This document shows positions 3,001 to 9,000 of a stretch of DNA of 64,000 nt, one piece after another (position 1 is the first letter of the stretch; every line of letters starts with the position of its first letter). A program made the position numbers. This DNA comes from Pocillopora damicornis (taxonomy: Eukaryota). The stretch is from the NCBI RefSeq assembly GCF_003704095.1, contig NW_020847374.1:1-64000 (forward strand), given 5' to 3'.

Positions 3001-6000
3001 CGAAGCCTGGCAGATGAACTTATGGAACATTACAAGAATGTTCACATTGCCAAGATCTCGGGCTCATCAGCATCAATCGGAGGCTTTGTTTTAGCCGCTA
3101 CGGGGTTCGGTCTCGCTGCTGTCAGTCTTGGGACTTCACTGATTCTATCTGCGGTTGGAGGAGCGATCTGCGCCGGCGGAGGCGCTACTGTGGCTGGTTC
3201 CAGCATTGTACAATCGAAAATTTTCAAAACAAAGCTCGCGACGGCGCAAGAAATCATCGACGCCGATCGCAAAGCACAGGAACCTGTGCAGAGGCTTTTA
3301 GATGACCTTTGTCGTGAAGTATCTAAAGAATCGTTTAGCAGCGTGAAAAATAGTCTCGCTTGTAATGTAAGCGTCGCCTTGTTGGTGAAAAACCTCGTCG
3401 ATGTGAGTAACGGAATAAACATGACCGGCGCTAGTGTGGCAACGACAGTGGCAAGTGAGGGTATGGATGGAATACTCCGATCTATAGGTATAGCTGGAAA
3501 CACCGCTCGGATTGGAATATTCGCAGTGAGCATTGCACTTCTCCCTTTGGACATTTACCCTATGGTAACTTCCTTTACGGAGATTGACTCCGTTCGAAAA
3601 GGAAAGAAAGAGAAGGAGCCAGAGGCGGTTAAAAAGTTAAGAGAGCTGGCAGATGATTTGGAGAAGGAAATGAACGAGATACTTCAAGCTGTCGAAGAAT
3701 TCCAGCGAAAAAAACCTCTATGACTTTTATTTGAGGAAAAATATAAACATTACAACGCAAAGGCAAATCTCGTGCCAGCGGCCTTTATAGTTGGTACGGT
3801 CGTAAAGCTTACGTTAAACATCAACCGACACAATTTTGTAATTCGTCGGTTTATTGCTCGAGGATTTTTCAATCTGGCGCCATTAGAAGATAGGAAAAAT
3901 AGAAAATGATGAACAACTGATAAAACAGTAGATTGCGAGATGATTTGGCTTTCGTCGATGGAATCGATTCATTAACGAAACAAAAAATTACGATCATACA
4001 ATTTACATTTTCGACTGAAGGGCACCAGTAGTTGTCACGTTGCTGCGGTAACCAATGCAAAAGGGAAGAATTTACGGCTAAAAGAATAACTGCGATTTCG
4101 TGAGGGCAAAATGAAAGGATTCGTTTGTGGATAATCTATTTATTAATTGTTAAGAAACAAAAAGTGCGAGTGTTTTAGTATTTAGATCTATCAATTCACC
4201 TATCCCTGATTACCACCTGTTTGAACGTCATGTTTTAACATGCATGAGTGGTAGAACTGTCACTCAGTCGGCTACCTGCCTAGCGATTTTTGGGTCATTA
4301 CAATTTCAGATTAACCACTCCCGGCCAAAACTCATCTCCAAAATAGCGACTGGAAATTAAACTACTTGGTATCAACTGGACCTGAGATCGACGAAAGCCT
4401 AAAAATAAGTATTCTTTTGCTGGAAATCGATCTATAAAAGATTCCATGCAGCCTTATCTTTGGAATTGCGCCAAATTTTTTATACGTATTGTACTTACGA
4501 TTTACTTTCTTGCAACGAAGTTCATTTTTCTCGTTATTATTTGTTTGTTTTTGTTTGCCGTTTTTTAAATTCAGTCGCGTTCGGAGGAGATCTGTTTTGA
4601 GGAGTGGCATGGTGGGAAGGGCTTCAGTGAACACACAGCAACCTGATAACTAAGTATACTCTCCATACTGTTCTCTGTATATTTCCTTTATGTTAACAAG
4701 GTGAATTTGCACATGGATCAAGAAGTACCTCAGTTGGTGATCATTTTAGAGTTAACACATAGACACTGAAACAAATCTTTCTGTGTACATCTAAATTATT
4801 CTTCATTAGATCAAGTTTTGTCTATATTCATCAACAACTCAAAGCTAACGTCGTAGCTATAGGCATTTGCGGTTGACAACAGCGGGACCCTCTTCATCAT
4901 ATTCTTGCTTAGAGATCCACATGGACTGAAAATCCGATAACGAAGCCAGGATTGATCCCCCAATCCATGCAGAGTATTTAGGCTCAGGAGGAGCAATGAT
5001 CTTGACCTTTCTTGTAGGTGAAGCCCCGGCGAGTCCATTGATCTCCTTCTGCACTCTTTCGGCAATTCCTTTGAACATAGTGGAGCCACCAGACAAGACA
5101 ATATTGGCGTACATTTCATTTCTGATGTCTTCGTTGCACTTCACGATGGACTCAAATACGAGCTGATGGATGCCGGGTGACAACGCCAAACTATTGTCAG
5201 CCATGGAGGGCTGGAACAGAACCTCGGGACATCTAAATCTCTCGTCGCCAAGAGTGACAAACTGACCATCAGAGAGTTCATAGCTTCTCTGCAAGCTCGG
5301 ATCAGAGGCAGCAGTACTCATCTCCTTTTCAAAGTCCTGAGCGACATAGCAAAGCCTCTCTTTAACATCTCTTGCTAATCTGTGCTCGGTTAGAGTCTTG
5401 CCCCGTTCGCCCAGAATCTTTGTGAGATAATCTGTCAAATTCGTACCGGCCAAATCGAGACTCGAAACGTTCTGGCGAAGAGCGAAACCTTCACTGATAG
5501 GGACGGCGTAACTGACGCCGAAACCACTCTGGAGGACGATACCATCCTTACGGCCAGAGGCGTAGAGAGACAGGACAGGTGCTGGAGCTAAATACATCGC
5601 TGGTGTATGGAAGGTCTCGAACATGATCTATTGAAATAGAGATAACAGAAATTAACTGAAGCACTTGCCTCCCACGCTGGCATTGTTTAGAGTATAAAAA
5701 CTAAACCTGAATAGAGATATTTTGAGTCTCTGCATCCTCGTAAATCGCCTTTACCAATTTTTTTCGTCCCTATCCTATATCAGTGGCAAAATGTTTCGGT
5801 GGGCATTGTTGAAAAGCTTGGGCGAACATTTTTCTAAGTCAAAATGGAGCTACGGCGATGCTTTCCTAGCGAAACTAGACACTTGATAGGTTTGCCTGAA
5901 TTTCCGGCCGCCATATTCGCACTCCTCCTAAGTCCTGTATATTTTTATTGAGACATTTTTTCGAATATTTCATTGGCGGAAAACTGCAAAGATGCTTTGA

Positions 6001-9000
6001 TTATTGATTGATATTCTTCCATATCTCGAAATTATTGGCTTTAGGCGTAAAGTGGTTCTGATCTCTCGTTCGCGTGACTGTGGACTGACCACCCAATTCA
6101 TATAAGCTGTCCAGCACATCTCGCTCTGTGCAGATATCTGTTTAGGCTTCACAAACTATTTTCAGTTACCTCTGTTGTCTTCTCTCTGTTTACTTGTGGA
6201 TTAAATGGTGCTTCTGTCAGAAGAACGGGGCGTTCTTCGGGACTTACACCCAGCTGGGCGAAAGTGTAATGCCAGATCTGCAACATAACATTCATATCTT
6301 AATACATAATTGTTTTAACTTTTCCTTATTAGATCCTGACACAATTTGAATTTAAATCACCGTTTCCATGTCCTCCCAGTTAGTTATGATCGAGTTCTTG
6401 ACTGGGTATGTAAGATCCAGATCGCCCCTCTTATCCAAGGCACCATTTCCGACGAGCGGATCTTCGCGATCTGCTTGTTCTTGTAATTTCGCGTACTTTG
6501 GATGACCAACGACGGAGGTAAACTCTACTTGAGGAGACTCGTCTTTGGCAAATCCCGCTTTGATTGTATCAGACCCATTATCCAAAACAACAGCTTTGGC
6601 GAGCGACATTCTGTTTTTCCTGACCTTAGCTTTTCTGCTATTCACTTACTCTCGGGAGGAGAAATTATAGAGGACTAAGGGAAATTATTGCGTGACAAGG
6701 GTTGTCACGTAACAGTTAATATATTTTTTTCATGGGGCAGTCTACGTTCGAAATTATTTTGAATTTTCCTACATCTATAATTTCGCTCAAAGTCTTTTCG
6801 AATTTTCATCTCTTAGGATCTAAAAACCAAAATTTATTTCCTTGGTATGACAGTTTTTATTCAAGTTGCTTCTCTGTTATGTTTTGTTTTTGCTTTTGTC
6901 TTGTTTTGTTTTTCATGTTATTAATATTTACAACAGTGGGAGAATTATACATGAAGGGAAAGAGAGTAAGAAAATTACTCAAACTTAAATTTCCTTTTTA
7001 CTACAGTGTAAAGTCTGTTAACTTTTTTAGTATCACAACACCCTCTGTCAAATAAAACATCCAGTTGAGAGAGTTCCTTAGTTTTGGCCAGCTGAAGCAA
7101 TGTGTAAATGATACTCAGGGACTTCCATCTGAGGTCTAAGAGTGGGGCTTCTGTAAGAAGACAAAAAAACCAGATTACTTTTACTCAAAGAATTCCCTTG
7201 CATTCAATCTGCTCAGTGGTAATTATATAGGTTGGATAATATCTTCACCAAAGACTTGTTTTATCTTAAAGGGGCTAAAATTCTAATTAAAATTAACTTT
7301 GGTGCTGCATTGGTGAGAGATTATAACAGGGTAATTTAGTATTATCAAGTAAGTTGATAAGATAAATCAGCCATCATAAGAGTTTTAAAACTGACATTTC
7401 AAGCATTAGCCCTTCAACAGAGTGATTGAGTGGGGCTAACACTCGAAACATCAACTTTGAAACTCTTTACTGTGGCCAATTATTTACTTTATCAACTCAG
7501 TTGATAACATAAAATTACCTTGTTTTTATCATAGACTTACCAGCTGATGAAGTGATTGGAGGTAAGAGGTCCAGTAAATACTTGGCCAATTTTCCAACAA
7601 CATGTTTATCTGGTAAATTCAGGATGGCATGAAGGACATCAGCATCGTCAATAACCTCCAGCATCCGAGCAGTTATATTGACATCATCAGTAGATCTTTC
7701 CTTTTCAAGAAATATTCCCATATATTTTGTCAGTGTATCTTGTTTCTCTAACATTGATAAAACATTCCATGTTGCAGGACACTTGAGTAGCTTCCCAAGA
7801 CCATCCAGAGCTACCTGTAACATTAGAGATATTCCATGGTTGTAAAGTGTTCTGTCTAATTATAAACTATCTGAGAATAAGAGCATATTTCAATAAACGT
7901 TTGGCCCACTCTTTAGAAAATTGGTACACAAGTTGGACTTTTAAAAGTTTTATATATCACAGTTTTGGTGCATTTGTGTGTATTTTATCCTTTCCTTCCT
8001 GTGGTTATCCACGTTTTTTACCATTTGGTTTTCTCTCACCCTGTTGGTCTTAATCAACCTCTAGTCTGCAAAGGAGCCACAGGAAGGGAAGGGGGGAGAG
8101 GTGGCTTAATGTTAGAGCTTTCTCAGCTGTTGGTTATGTGTAAGCTTAGAGGCACTGAGTGGCAAAACTTGAGACTCCACTTGAAGCTTGGCTACTCATT
8201 TTGAAGGCTCTGCCACCTTTGTTTTCATAGAGCCCCCAAACAACTGCCAGCCAGTCAGGCCTGTGGTGTTTTTAGGATGTTAGCCTAGTTCTTAAGGGCC
8301 TATTGTTTTCCTAAATTAATTGCAATTGCCATAGCAATTATCAAGATTGCCTTAGTGAGTAAAATTCAAGCATTAACTATTTGAAGCCTCTTGAAACAAA
8401 AGAAGTTTGGGGTGGGTACCAGTCTTCCAAAGTGTAAAGTAATTAATCTAAAAGATTGATATTGCATGCCTTTTTTAATTTGTCAAAAACTTACCTGATA
8501 AAGAAATGAACTTGAACACTCTCCTGGATTGTTCAGAATGCTCAGAACAGTTTGCAAAGTTAAGAGAACAAACTTTATAGCACTGAGGGGAAGGAGAGCT
8601 GCCCAGGAAATTGTGATGTAGCAAAGTGATGAACAGGCTATAACTTGACAAAGATGAAACCTGTATAATGTAAAATATAGGGGGAGCAGTAATTGACATG
8701 TTACAACTCACCAATATGTCAAGTGGATATTAACAATGTCATAGGAATGGAATTAGTGCCTTTGTTAAGTAGTGACATAGGAAGGTAGTGAAATCATGGT
8801 AAAGTTGTGAATTTTGTTGGTCCATGAGGGTTGATCTTTTTCCAGGTTAACAAGGCCCATGTGTGAGGTCATTTTCTTGAAGGACAGTAACAGCAGAGGA
8901 GAAAACATGTGGGTTATTTCTAAAATTGGAGAGGTTGATGAATTATCTGTGGGTTGTATTAGCTTTGTTTGAGTTGCTTACATCATCTGTGACTTACACA

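What the first reader, a model, noticed from the sequence alone, without database searches (positions are those of the whole stretch)
4857..6609. Full-length actin that has lost the ATP-hydrolysis and filament-contact residues (candidate pseudo-ATPase actin)
Seen, aligned by eye to conventional actin: MYVAIQAVL becomes MYLAPAPVL (Q137A, flanked by two prolines). VLDSGDGVTH becomes [10 protein letters not shown] (D154Q, D157F, H161Y). DNGSGMCK becomes DNGSDTIK (G15D in the P1 loop). YPIEHGI becomes YPVKNSI (loss of methyl-His73). The D-loop is replaced by KYAKLQEQADRE and there is no acidic N-terminus. Yet the length (375 aa), both introns and the C-terminal half are intact with no frameshift. 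Known: Q137 and H161 position the attacking water, while D154/D157 and the P1/P2 loops bind Mg-nucleotide. Inference: a maintained, catalytically dead or non-polymerising actin with a scaffold, decoy or gamete-specific role.
Basis: partly seen in the sequence, partly recalled or inferred. Interest (0 to 1): 0.7.

Follow-up and report, generated by a model that had tools for sequence, protein, structure and literature searches.

The report
Stony-coral actin copy with dead ATPase site
This is an intact, transcribed coral gene for an actin look-alike, shared by stony corals, in which the residues that let actin split ATP have been replaced, so it probably binds ATP without using it.

Summary
Window 4857-6609 (minus strand) holds a three-exon, 375-codon actin gene with GT..AG introns. 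Its three exon translations match RefSeq XP_027057496.1 ('actin-3-like', Pocillopora damicornis) letter for letter.

It is not a one-off or a decaying copy. It belongs to a 100/100-supported clade of actin paralogues. Named members come from seven stony-coral genera of both major branches: Pocillopora, Stylophora, Oculina, Orbicella, Desmophyllum, Porites and Montipora. The clade lies on the actin side of the tree, apart from Arp1 and Arp-T2.

G15D, H73N, Q137A and loss of D154 and D157 are family-wide. H161Y is confined to the Pocillopora/Stylophora branch. The adenosine pocket, the loop glycines, the barbed-end cleft and the fold (AlphaFold2 pLDDT 93) are kept.

An engineered Q137A/D154A/H161A actin binds ATP and polymerises but has no measurable ATPase. 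I therefore read this as a maintained, nucleotide-binding, hydrolysis-deficient actin paralogue. Whether it polymerises, and where it is expressed, stays open. No paper on it was found. I rate it a new member of a known kind, lineage-specific divergent actins.

The parts
6361..6609 (-). Exon 1, codons 1-83 (ATG at 6609..6607). It holds the non-acidic N-terminus, the P1 loop, the D-loop equivalent and the sensor loop.
6559..6582 (-). P1 phosphate loop D10-K17 (DNGSDTIK). Codon 14, GAT at 6570..6568, is the G15D change.
   Evidence: D in 8 of 9 family rows, Y in 1
6463..6498 (-). D-loop equivalent K38-E49 (KYAKLQEQADRE). A41, K42, E45, D48 and R49 (actin numbering) are invariant in 9 of 9 family rows.
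6388..6408 (-). Sensor loop Y68-I74 (YPVKNSI). H73N and G74S occur in 10 of 10 family rows.
6278..6360 (-). Intron 1 (GT..AG, phase 0), between actin codons 84 and 85. An in-frame TAA follows the donor.
6170..6277 (-). Exon 2, codons 84-119.
5628..6169 (-). Intron 2 (GT..AG, phase 0), between actin codons 121 and 122.
4857..5627 (-). Exon 3, codons 120-375, plus the stop TAG at 4859..4857.
5577..5591 (-). L132-P136 (LAPAP). A135, GCA at 5582..5580, is Q137A. V134L and A138P occur in 22 of 22 family rows.
5508..5531 (-). P2 phosphate loop Q152-Y159 (QSGFGVSY), carrying D154Q, D157F and H161Y. G156 and G158 are kept.
5172..5216 (-). Plug region F257-G271 ([15 protein letters not shown]). It is polar, with three extra residues relative to conventional actin.

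Best explanation
The gene encodes the Pocillopora member of a clade of actin paralogues that I found only in stony corals (Scleractinia). The clade arose from actin proper, not from an old ARP class, before the complex and robust coral branches split. It has been kept intact since then.

The protein keeps the actin fold, the adenosine pocket, and the glycines, D11, S14 and K18 of the phosphate loops. It has lost the residues that position and activate the attacking water and relay the proton: Q137 is A, D154 is Q and H161 is Y. It also carries G15D, D157F and H73N.

Most likely it still binds an adenine nucleotide, as a structural cofactor, and does not hydrolyse it. That would lock it in one nucleotide state.

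Its pointed-end face has been rebuilt. The D-loop is now a family-conserved charged motif, and the plug has become polar. Sites I recall as used for regulation in conventional actin are gone (M44, M47, H73, and in this species R177). The barbed-end cleft and the C-terminus are kept.

I therefore think it does not act as a treadmilling filament subunit. It more likely acts as a static actin-fold partner that binds cleft-binding proteins or an actin filament end, in the manner of orphan Arps.

Shown: the gene, the clade, the residue states and the predicted fold. Inferred: nucleotide binding, lack of hydrolysis, and the static-partner role. The static-partner role is the weakest step, at about 0.4 on its own.
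For: Gene and identity. The product is letter-for-letter RefSeq XP_027057496.1.

Transcription and splicing: several 375-aa uninterrupted ORFs lie on 1.5-4.5 kb assembled contigs in the same 90% cluster. The genomic intron 1 has an in-frame stop.

Clade: all 22 family rows form one clade at 100/100 with a stem of 0.29. Inside it, a complex-type subclade (Porites, Montipora) has 100/99 and a robust-type subclade (Pocillopora, Stylophora, Oculina, Orbicella, Desmophyllum) has 95/81.

Not an ARP: a 100/97 branch separates the family, together with the actins, from an Arp1 clade and from a named Arp-T2. The Arp1 clade was labelled, where P0277 scores 599 bits to Arp1 against 487 to actin. The best 60 of 161 solved-structure sequence matches and the top 50 fold matches (query TM-score 0.88-0.95) are all conventional actin.

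Residues:
- Q137 is A in 19 of 22 rows, G in 2 and S in 1.
- D154 is E in 14, Q in 6, G in 1 and D in 1.
- D157 is Y in 18, F in 3 and S in 1.
- G15D occurs in 8 of 9 rows and H73N in 10 of 10.
- K213, G301, G302 and F306 are kept in 22 of 22 rows, E214 and M305 in 21 of 22, and K336 in 19 of 22.
- The barbed-end cleft is identical to conventional actin at 12 of 16 listed positions, against 2 of 15 for the D-loop.

Fold: pLDDT 93.1 and pTM 0.90.

Literature: the Q137A/D154A/H161A actin has no measurable ATPase yet binds nucleotide (PMC9646518 passage; PMC6867828 passages). Q137A alone has low ATPase (PMC10062479 abstract and passages). Arp4 holds ATP structurally without hydrolysing it (PMC3510490 passages).
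Against: No biochemical data exist for this protein.

The changes here are not alanines. Y161, Q152 or the new D14 could rebuild some water activation.

Most of the family keeps H161 (19 of 22 rows) and has the conservative D154E (14 of 22). Weak hydrolysis is therefore plausible in most members, and the fully 'dead' reading applies best to the Pocillopora/Stylophora branch.

G15D and D157F sit next to the phosphates and the ribose (recalled), so they might abolish nucleotide binding rather than only hydrolysis.

The engineered triple mutant polymerises normally. The family consensus is 89% identical to conventional actin in subdomain 4 and 82% in the second subdomain-3 segment (residues 270-337), which carry longitudinal contacts. 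Polymerisation or co-polymerisation is therefore not excluded.

The functional residue lists used are recalled from the actin literature, not taken from a tool.

dN/dS was not computed. Expression site is unknown.

The tree leaves the family in an unresolved polytomy with conventional and other divergent actins. Its bootstrap had not fully settled (correlation 0.986).
Confidence: 0.6

Rival explanations
1. ATP-locked but polymerising actin. The protein assembles, alone or with conventional actin, into filaments that never age to ADP. With M44, M47 and H73 gone (sites I recall as MICAL and SETD3 targets), it would build long-lived structures.
For: The engineered Q137A/D154A/H161A actin binds nucleotide, binds profilin and elongates at near wild-type rates (PMC6867828 passages). 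The family consensus is 89% identical to conventional actin in subdomain 4 and 82% in the second subdomain-3 segment (residues 270-337). Of the longitudinal-contact residues, L242 and D244 are kept in 22 of 22 rows and E241 in 21, with P243 and G245 in 20, D286 in 19, I289 in 18 and R290 in 16. The cleft is identical at 12 of 16 positions. The D-loop equivalent is itself conserved within the family and is predicted to be more ordered than in the conventional-actin control: pLDDT 76 with short helices against 58 and coil.
Against: The D-loop is identical to conventional actin at 2 of 15 positions. The plug has lost its hydrophobic residues (F266M, I267A, G268D, M269N) and gained three residues. 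Positions I recall as lateral contacts are identical at only 6 of 12. In this species, residues 201-203 are deleted and P243 is S.
Confidence: 0.25
2. Nucleotide-free actin fold. The new Asp in the P1 loop and the aromatic residue at 157 fill or repel the phosphate and ribose sites, so the protein is stable without ATP, as is reported (recalled) for some yeast nuclear Arps.
For: G15D puts a carboxylate where a backbone amide meets the beta-phosphate (recalled). D157, a ribose contact (recalled), is Y or F in 21 of 22 family rows. D154 is lost in 21 of 22.
Against: Adenosine-pocket residues are conserved: K213, G301, G302 and F306 in 22 of 22 rows, E214 and M305 in 21 of 22, K336 in 19 of 22. 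D11, G13, S14 and K18 (9 of 9 rows each) and G156 and G158 (22 of 22) are also kept. That conservation is hard to explain without a ligand.
Confidence: 0.1
3. An ordinary cytoplasmic actin isoform with normal ATPase and polymerisation, as the automatic names ('actin-3-like', 'actin, cytoplasmic-like') imply.
For: It has the length, fold and 62.6% identity to the conventional consensus (231 of 369). Its best matches everywhere are actins.
Against: Sixteen positions that are at least 90% invariant in the conventional set are fixed to another residue in the family, including G15, H73, G74, Q137 and A138. The water-activating positions are replaced: Q137 and D154 family-wide, H161 in the Pocillopora/Stylophora branch. 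The triple mutant at those positions has no measurable ATPase. The clade stem is 0.29 changes per site, against end branches of 0.01-0.08 for conventional actins.
Confidence: 0.03
4. A pseudogene or decaying duplicate that happens still to be open in this genome.
For: It evolves much faster than conventional actin, and the Pocillopora/Stylophora stem is long (0.086 + 0.16).
Against: There is no stop or frameshift, and the splice sites are canonical. All 22 cluster representatives used are open over the region they cover, across both coral branches. Derived residues are themselves conserved. Full-length uninterrupted ORFs on short contigs indicate spliced transcripts.
Confidence: 0.02

Closest known systems
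Conventional metazoan actin (cytoplasmic or muscle)
   Same: It has the Pfam Actin fold and a 375-aa length. It is 62.6% identical to the conventional consensus, and the family consensus is 73.2% identical. Both intron positions are ones I recall from conventional actin genes (84/85 and 121/122). Two conventional-actin ORFs of unnamed origin read through from non-coding sequence at exactly these points (P0032, P0036). The adenosine pocket, the barbed-end cleft and the C-terminus are largely kept.
   Different: G15D, H73N/G74S, V134L/Q137A/A138P, D154Q, D157F and H161Y. The D-loop is replaced (2 of 15 positions identical). The plug is polar and three residues longer. There is no acidic N-terminus, and F375 is L. 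It forms a separate 100/100 clade on a long stem.
[quoted passage not shown] 2019, PMC6867828)
   Same: The same three catalytic positions are all non-functional in type here (A, Q, Y). The mutant keeps nucleotide binding but has no measurable hydrolysis.
   Different: This protein is natural. Its side chains are not alanines. It carries further changes in the cleft (G15D, D157F, A138P), the sensor loop and the filament contacts. The mutant polymerises normally, which cannot be assumed here.
Lineage-specific 'orphan' Arps (mammalian ACTRT/Arp-T and ACTL7A/B; Drosophila Arp53D)
   Same: These are also taxon-restricted, fast-evolving actin-fold paralogues kept beside conventional actin. Titles and abstracts were seen in the search listing.
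   Different: This protein does not group with the one named Arp-T2 in the tree (P0327, used as the outgroup). That Arp-T2 keeps DSGDGVTH. The coral clade is much closer to actin: P0327 is 42% identical to actin, against about 62% here. The orphan Arps are mostly testis-expressed, whereas expression is unknown here.
Arp4 (BAF53) and Arp8, nuclear Arps
   Same: Their active sites are altered, and in Arp4 ATP is held structurally without hydrolysis. Arp8 replaces G15, Q137 and H161 by T, E and S (PMC3510490 passages). One coral family member has G15Y (P0398), a state I recall from Arp4.
   Different: There is no sequence affinity and there are none of the long Arp-type insertions. No Arp4 or Arp8 appears among the best 60 sequence matches or the top 50 fold matches. 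They were not in the tree.
Arp1 (centractin)
   Same: It is the ARP class most like actin, with a similar length.
   Different: The Arp1 clade (P0277, P0323, P0280) is split from the family and the actins by a 100/97 branch. The two metazoan-like Arp1 representatives, P0277 and P0280, keep D.GDGVTH.

Membership tests
Actin family (Pfam PF00022) | Match to the family profile above the curated cut-off, and the actin fold | tested here: met
   each exon scores above the 27-bit cut-off (65.5, 28.3 and 280 bits); pLDDT 93.1; query TM-score 0.88-0.95 to solved actins.
Conventional actin | Catalytic and sensor residues Q137, D154, H161, G15 and H73 (list recalled from the literature; roles quoted) | tested here: not met
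   the residues are A, Q, Y, D and N.
Conventional actin | Conserved D-loop and hydrophobic plug (filament contacts) | tested here: not met
   2 of 15 D-loop positions and 7 of 13 plug positions are identical; three residues are inserted in the plug.
Conventional actin | Groups with conventional actins in a tree | tested here: inconclusive
   the family lies on the actin side of a 100/97 branch, but as a separate 100/100 clade in an unresolved polytomy.
Conventional actin | Polymerisation-activated ATPase and filament formation | not testable with these tools
   This needs recombinant protein.
Arp1 (centractin) | Groups with Arp1, and scores better to solved Arp1 than to actin | tested here: not met
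   the Arp1 clade is excluded by a 100/97 branch. The best 60 solved matches are all actin.
Arp-T / ACTRT (testis Arps) | Groups with a named Arp-T2 | tested here: not met
   P0327 (named Arp-T2, from a lizard) lies outside the 100/98 branch that holds the family. Only this one member was tested.
Arp2, Arp3, Arp4, Arp5, Arp6, Arp8, Arp10 | Groups with the class in a tree | not tested
   No member of these classes was put in the tree, and I recognised none among the sequences retrieved. None appears in the best 60 sequence matches or the top 50 fold matches.
Stony-coral divergent-actin clade (unnamed; defined here) | Monophyly, plus the shared derived states G15D, H73N/G74S, V134L/Q137A/A138P, Y169F and loss of D157 | tested here: met
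   22 of 22 rows form one clade at 100/100; the window protein carries all of these states.

The most novel reading that the evidence does not exclude
Stony corals run a second, private actin system. It would be a naturally hydrolysis-dead actin that lacks the sites I recall as MICAL, SETD3 and toxin targets. Its rebuilt, charged D-loop (invariant A41, K42, E45, D48, R49) would have co-evolved with changes in its own barbed-end cleft (T148K, Y169F, T351D, F375V/L). The protein would then assemble only with itself into non-ageing filaments. Stony corals would use these for a structure peculiar to them, for instance anchoring tissue to the skeleton.
Probability: 0.1. Interest if true: 0.75.

Novelty: new member of a known kind. 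Interest (0 to 1): 0.45.

Why it matters
Actin's ATPase is usually treated as inseparable from its function, and the ATPase-dead form is known as a laboratory triple mutant. Here a protein still about 63% identical to actin has carried changes at those positions through the radiation of stony corals (at all three in the Pocillopora/Stylophora branch).

That makes it a natural experiment on what an actin fold does once hydrolysis, the methyl-histidine sensor and the D-loop are given up. It is also a candidate stony-coral-specific cytoskeletal component.

In practice, the automatic names ('actin-3-like', 'actin, cytoplasmic-like') hide this. Such genes should not be pooled with housekeeping actins in expression normalisation or in phylogenetics.

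Tried and rejected
- Complex prediction, two copies of the protein: no verdict (score 0.00, controls not run). It counts neither for nor against self-association.
- The search of protein representatives: no resolution. The family clusters with conventional actin at 50% identity, and the top hits were fusion proteins holding conventional actin at about 62-63% identity. I used it only to collect 23 divergent actins and Arp1 sequences for the tree.
- The protein-atlas search: nearest clusters were generic actin and Arp names. Uninformative.
- The sponge divergent-actin paper (PMC12146513; passages) has nothing on cnidarian actins.
- The Stylophora cell atlas main text (PMC8162421; passages) does not mention this gene. 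Its tables are supplements, which are closed.
- Literature searches for the coral family, its automatic name and its accessions found nothing. Two of the six terms (LOC identifiers) were guesses of mine with no source and carry no weight.
- Tandem actin copies in the window were considered and rejected: tblastn finds only this gene.
- The joined 375-aa translation of the three exons was not made. The exons were searched one by one.

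
Full report
**Observation**

The region 4857-6609 carries, on the minus strand, a complete actin-type gene.
- Exon 1 is 6609..6361 (83 codons), exon 2 is 6277..6170 (36 codons) and exon 3 is 5627..4860 (256 codons).
- The stop codon TAG is at 4859..4857.
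- Both introns are GT..AG and lie between codons. Intron 1 has an in-frame TAA right after its donor.
- The total is 375 codons, with no frameshift and no internal stop.
- Each exon matches Pfam Actin on its own.

- G15D (DNGSDTIK)
- H73N (YPVKNSI)
- Q137A between two prolines (MYLAPAPVL)
- D154Q, D157F and H161Y ([10 protein letters not shown])
- a replaced D-loop (KYAKLQEQADRE)
- a non-acidic N-terminus (MSLAK)

The window holds no other actin-like gene. None of its four N runs touches this one.

**How the spliced model was handled**

A cluster look-up returned a named RefSeq protein, XP_027057496.1 'actin-3-like [Pocillopora damicornis]' (P0124, 375 aa). The three exon translations are exact substrings of it at 1-83, 84-119 and 120-375. 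I used that database protein wherever a full-length sequence was needed. The window is therefore coral (Pocillopora), not human.

**The family**

The exon-3 search (the best 120 of 8000 scored are listed) gave a graded series of relatives, all closer to the query than conventional actin is (64-65% identity):
- 98-100%: Pocillopora
- 84-85%: Stylophora
- 77%
- 66-69%
- 61-64%

Cluster look-ups and two further searches put names on members:

| Species | Accession or protein id |
|---|---|
| Pocillopora meandrina | CAH3169700.1 |
| Stylophora pistillata | XP_022795437.1 |
| Orbicella faveolata | XP_020627983.1 |
| Oculina patagonica | P0313 |
| Desmophyllum pertusum | P0322 |
| Porites lobata | P0314 |
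| Montipora foliosa | XP_068673297.1 |
| Montipora capricornis | XP_068760975.1 |

- These are seven genera covering both the robust and the complex branch of stony corals. That assignment of genera to branches is recalled.
- With the family profile, single-domain members scored 684-741 bits (Montipora 626). Conventional actins scored about 620.
- At, 60 of the 328 proteins then held carried the LA.APVL motif. All 60 also had the altered P2 loop. Many of them are near-identical members of a single cluster.
- No member named from sea anemones, octocorals or hydrozoans was seen.
- The searches list only their best 120 hits and pick candidates by shared words. A more distant orthologue could therefore have been missed.

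**Transcription**

Several members of the Pocillopora, Stylophora, Montipora and one unnamed cluster are uninterrupted ORFs of 374-375 aa on assembled contigs of about 1.5-4.5 kb. In this window the unspliced gene cannot give such an ORF. These are best read as spliced transcripts. A processed genomic copy is not excluded.

**Tree**

One search is a careful IQ-TREE run on 65 rows and 377 columns. Its bootstrap had not quite settled (correlation 0.986).

Rows used:
- 22 family rows, about one per 90% cluster, with near-identical cluster members left out
- 12 conventional actins
- 23 of the 28 representatives of 360-410 aa. Five conventional-like fragments were dropped, and the other 122 of the 150 were left out for length.
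- 8 divergent actins or Arps

Results:
- The family is one clade (100/100) on a stem of 0.29 changes per site.
- Inside it, a subclade with Porites and Montipora (100/99) faces one with Pocillopora, Stylophora, Oculina, Orbicella and Desmophyllum (95/81). This mirrors the species split and fits one old gene inherited vertically.
- The Pocillopora/Stylophora lineage sits on a long stem (0.086 + 0.16).
- The family lies in an unresolved polytomy with conventional and assorted divergent actins.
- A 100/97 branch excludes an Arp1 clade, one unnamed Arp-like protein and a named Arp-T2. The Arp1 clade was labelled, where P0277 scores 599 bits to solved Arp1 against 487 to actin.
- Arp2, 3, 4, 5, 6, 8 and 10 were not in the tree. 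None appears among the best 60 of 161 solved-structure sequence matches or the top 50 fold matches, all of which are conventional actin.

**Residues**

Sixteen positions are at least 90% one residue in the conventional set and at least 85% another residue in the family: G15D, G23K, V45E, Q49R, S52P, H73N, G74S, V76I, M119T, V134L, Q137A, A138P, Y169F, A174N, T277L and T351D. By my recall of actin structure, they cluster at the nucleotide cleft, the sensor loop, the D-loop and the barbed-end cleft.

States of the catalytic positions across the 22 family rows:

| Position | States (rows) |
|---|---|
| D154 | E 14, Q 6, G 1, D 1 |
| D157 | Y 18, F 3, S 1 |
| H161 | H 19, Y 3 (Y only in the two Pocillopora rows and Stylophora) |

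Residues kept:
- D11, N12, G13, S14 and K18 in 9 of 9 rows
- G156 and G158 in 22 of 22 rows
- K213, G301, G302 and F306 in 22 of 22 rows; E214 and M305 in 21 of 22; K336 in 19 of 22

Identity of the window protein to conventional actin at listed positions:

| Region | Identical positions |
|---|---|
| D-loop | 2 of 15 |
| Plug | 7 of 13 |
| Barbed-end cleft | 12 of 16 |

- The D-loop has its own invariant residues in the family: A41, K42, E45, D48 and R49, each in 9 of 9 rows.
- The plug carries three extra residues.
- Against the conventional consensus, the window protein is 62.6% identical (231 of 369). The family consensus is 73.2% identical (273 of 373).
- Subdomain 2 is the most changed (0.38 for the window protein, 0.32 for the family consensus).
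- Subdomain 4 is well kept in the family (0.89) but less so in Pocillopora (0.62).
- Also changed here are M44Q, M47A, K50E, Y53L, K84T, R177S, R335P and F375L.
- The functional lists of positions are recalled from the actin literature. The counts are computed.

**Predicted structure**

AlphaFold2 with a 50-row alignment gives a confident actin fold: pLDDT 93.1 and pTM 0.90. The D-loop equivalent is predicted with short helices and pLDDT 76 for residues 41-50. A control run of the sea-urchin actin with the same 50 rows gives coil and pLDDT 58 there. This is a small difference and I give it little weight. I had no access to the coordinates, so the geometry of the cleft was not examined.

**Mechanism**

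- Passages in PMC9646518 state that Q137 coordinates the attacking water. A network of a bridging water, D154 and H161 activates that water and takes the proton.
- The same passages state that Q137A is slower but not dead, and that Q137A/D154A/H161A has no measurable ATPase.
- Passages in PMC6867828 state that this triple mutant still binds nucleotide and profilin and polymerises at near wild-type rates.
- PMC10062479 (abstract and passages) confirms the low ATPase of Q137A.
- PMC3510490 (passages) shows that Arp4 keeps ATP as a structural ligand without hydrolysing it. It also shows that Arp8 tolerates other residues at positions 15, 137 and 161.

The Pocillopora protein has non-catalytic residues at all three positions, yet keeps the adenosine pocket and the loop glycines. 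The best reading is that it binds nucleotide without hydrolysing it. For the rest of the family (H161 kept, D154E) some residual activity is plausible.

The catalytic changes say nothing about assembly. The case against canonical filaments rests only on the rebuilt D-loop and plug and, in this species, on the deletion of residues 201-203 and on P243S. I lean towards a static, non-treadmilling role (about 0.4), against about 0.25 for an ATP-locked polymer.

**Not done or not possible**

- dN/dS was not computed, because no coral DNA other than the window was reachable. Maintenance is argued from intact ORFs in all 22 cluster representatives across both coral branches and from conservation of the derived residues.
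- The expression site is unknown. Supplements that may hold it for the Stylophora orthologue were closed, for example the tables of the cell atlas PMC8162421, whose main-text passages do not mention the gene.
- The complex prediction gave no verdict.

**Novelty**

Lineage-restricted divergent actins and orphan Arps are a known kind, and Arps without hydrolysis are known. New here is a stony-coral clade that stays very close to actin yet has replaced the catalytic core. It is described only by automatic names. I found no paper on it in six full-text searches. Two terms were guesses of mine.

Noticed in passing
P0314 (Porites lobata family member), residues about 255-285: Its plug region (FQPSFLGVESAGIHETTYNSIMKCD) looks like conventional actin. 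The other complex-type members carry the family's polar version. This may be gene conversion from a conventional actin gene.
   Followed up: no
Orbicella faveolata records XP_020627983.1 (family; P0159) and XP_020627948.1 (conventional-like actin; P0492): Both are listed with a longest contig of 1,604,841 bases, and their accession numbers are 35 apart. They probably lie on one scaffold, so the paralogue may sit near a conventional actin in that species. In this window no second actin lies within 64 kb.
   Followed up: no
P0320, P0217, P0289, P0209, P0214 (unnamed divergent actins from the searches): Unrelated divergent actins of unknown origin also carry altered phosphate loops, for example DNGSD with LDLGHGVSH, DSGYGVTH and ESGHAVSQ. 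They do not join the coral clade in the tree, so similar losses seem to recur.
   Followed up: partly
P0004 (272 aa, unnamed; 100% identical to exon 3 in the listing): This ORF runs 17 residues past the position of the window's stop (…RKCLQLLKQFEPV…), and the tail does not match the window's sequence downstream of the stop. This indicates a variant 3' end in another Pocillopora contig.
   Followed up: no
window 2926-3723 (+): An open frame with an Apolipoprotein L (ApoL) domain (E 2e-14) starts right at the end of the N run 2411-2925.
   Followed up: no
window 18639-20708 (-) and 29440-32386 (-): There are two sets of exons with the transmembrane amino-acid transporter domain (Aa_trans), each matching the same two parts of the profile. 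This looks like a tandem pair of transporter genes. An N run (20834-21273) lies beside the first.
   Followed up: no
window 23483-26051 (+): Exons encode ankyrin repeats followed by a SAM domain.
   Followed up: no
window 56022-56645 (-): An exon matches the 10-TM acyltransferase domain of Cas1p (E 1e-28).
   Followed up: no
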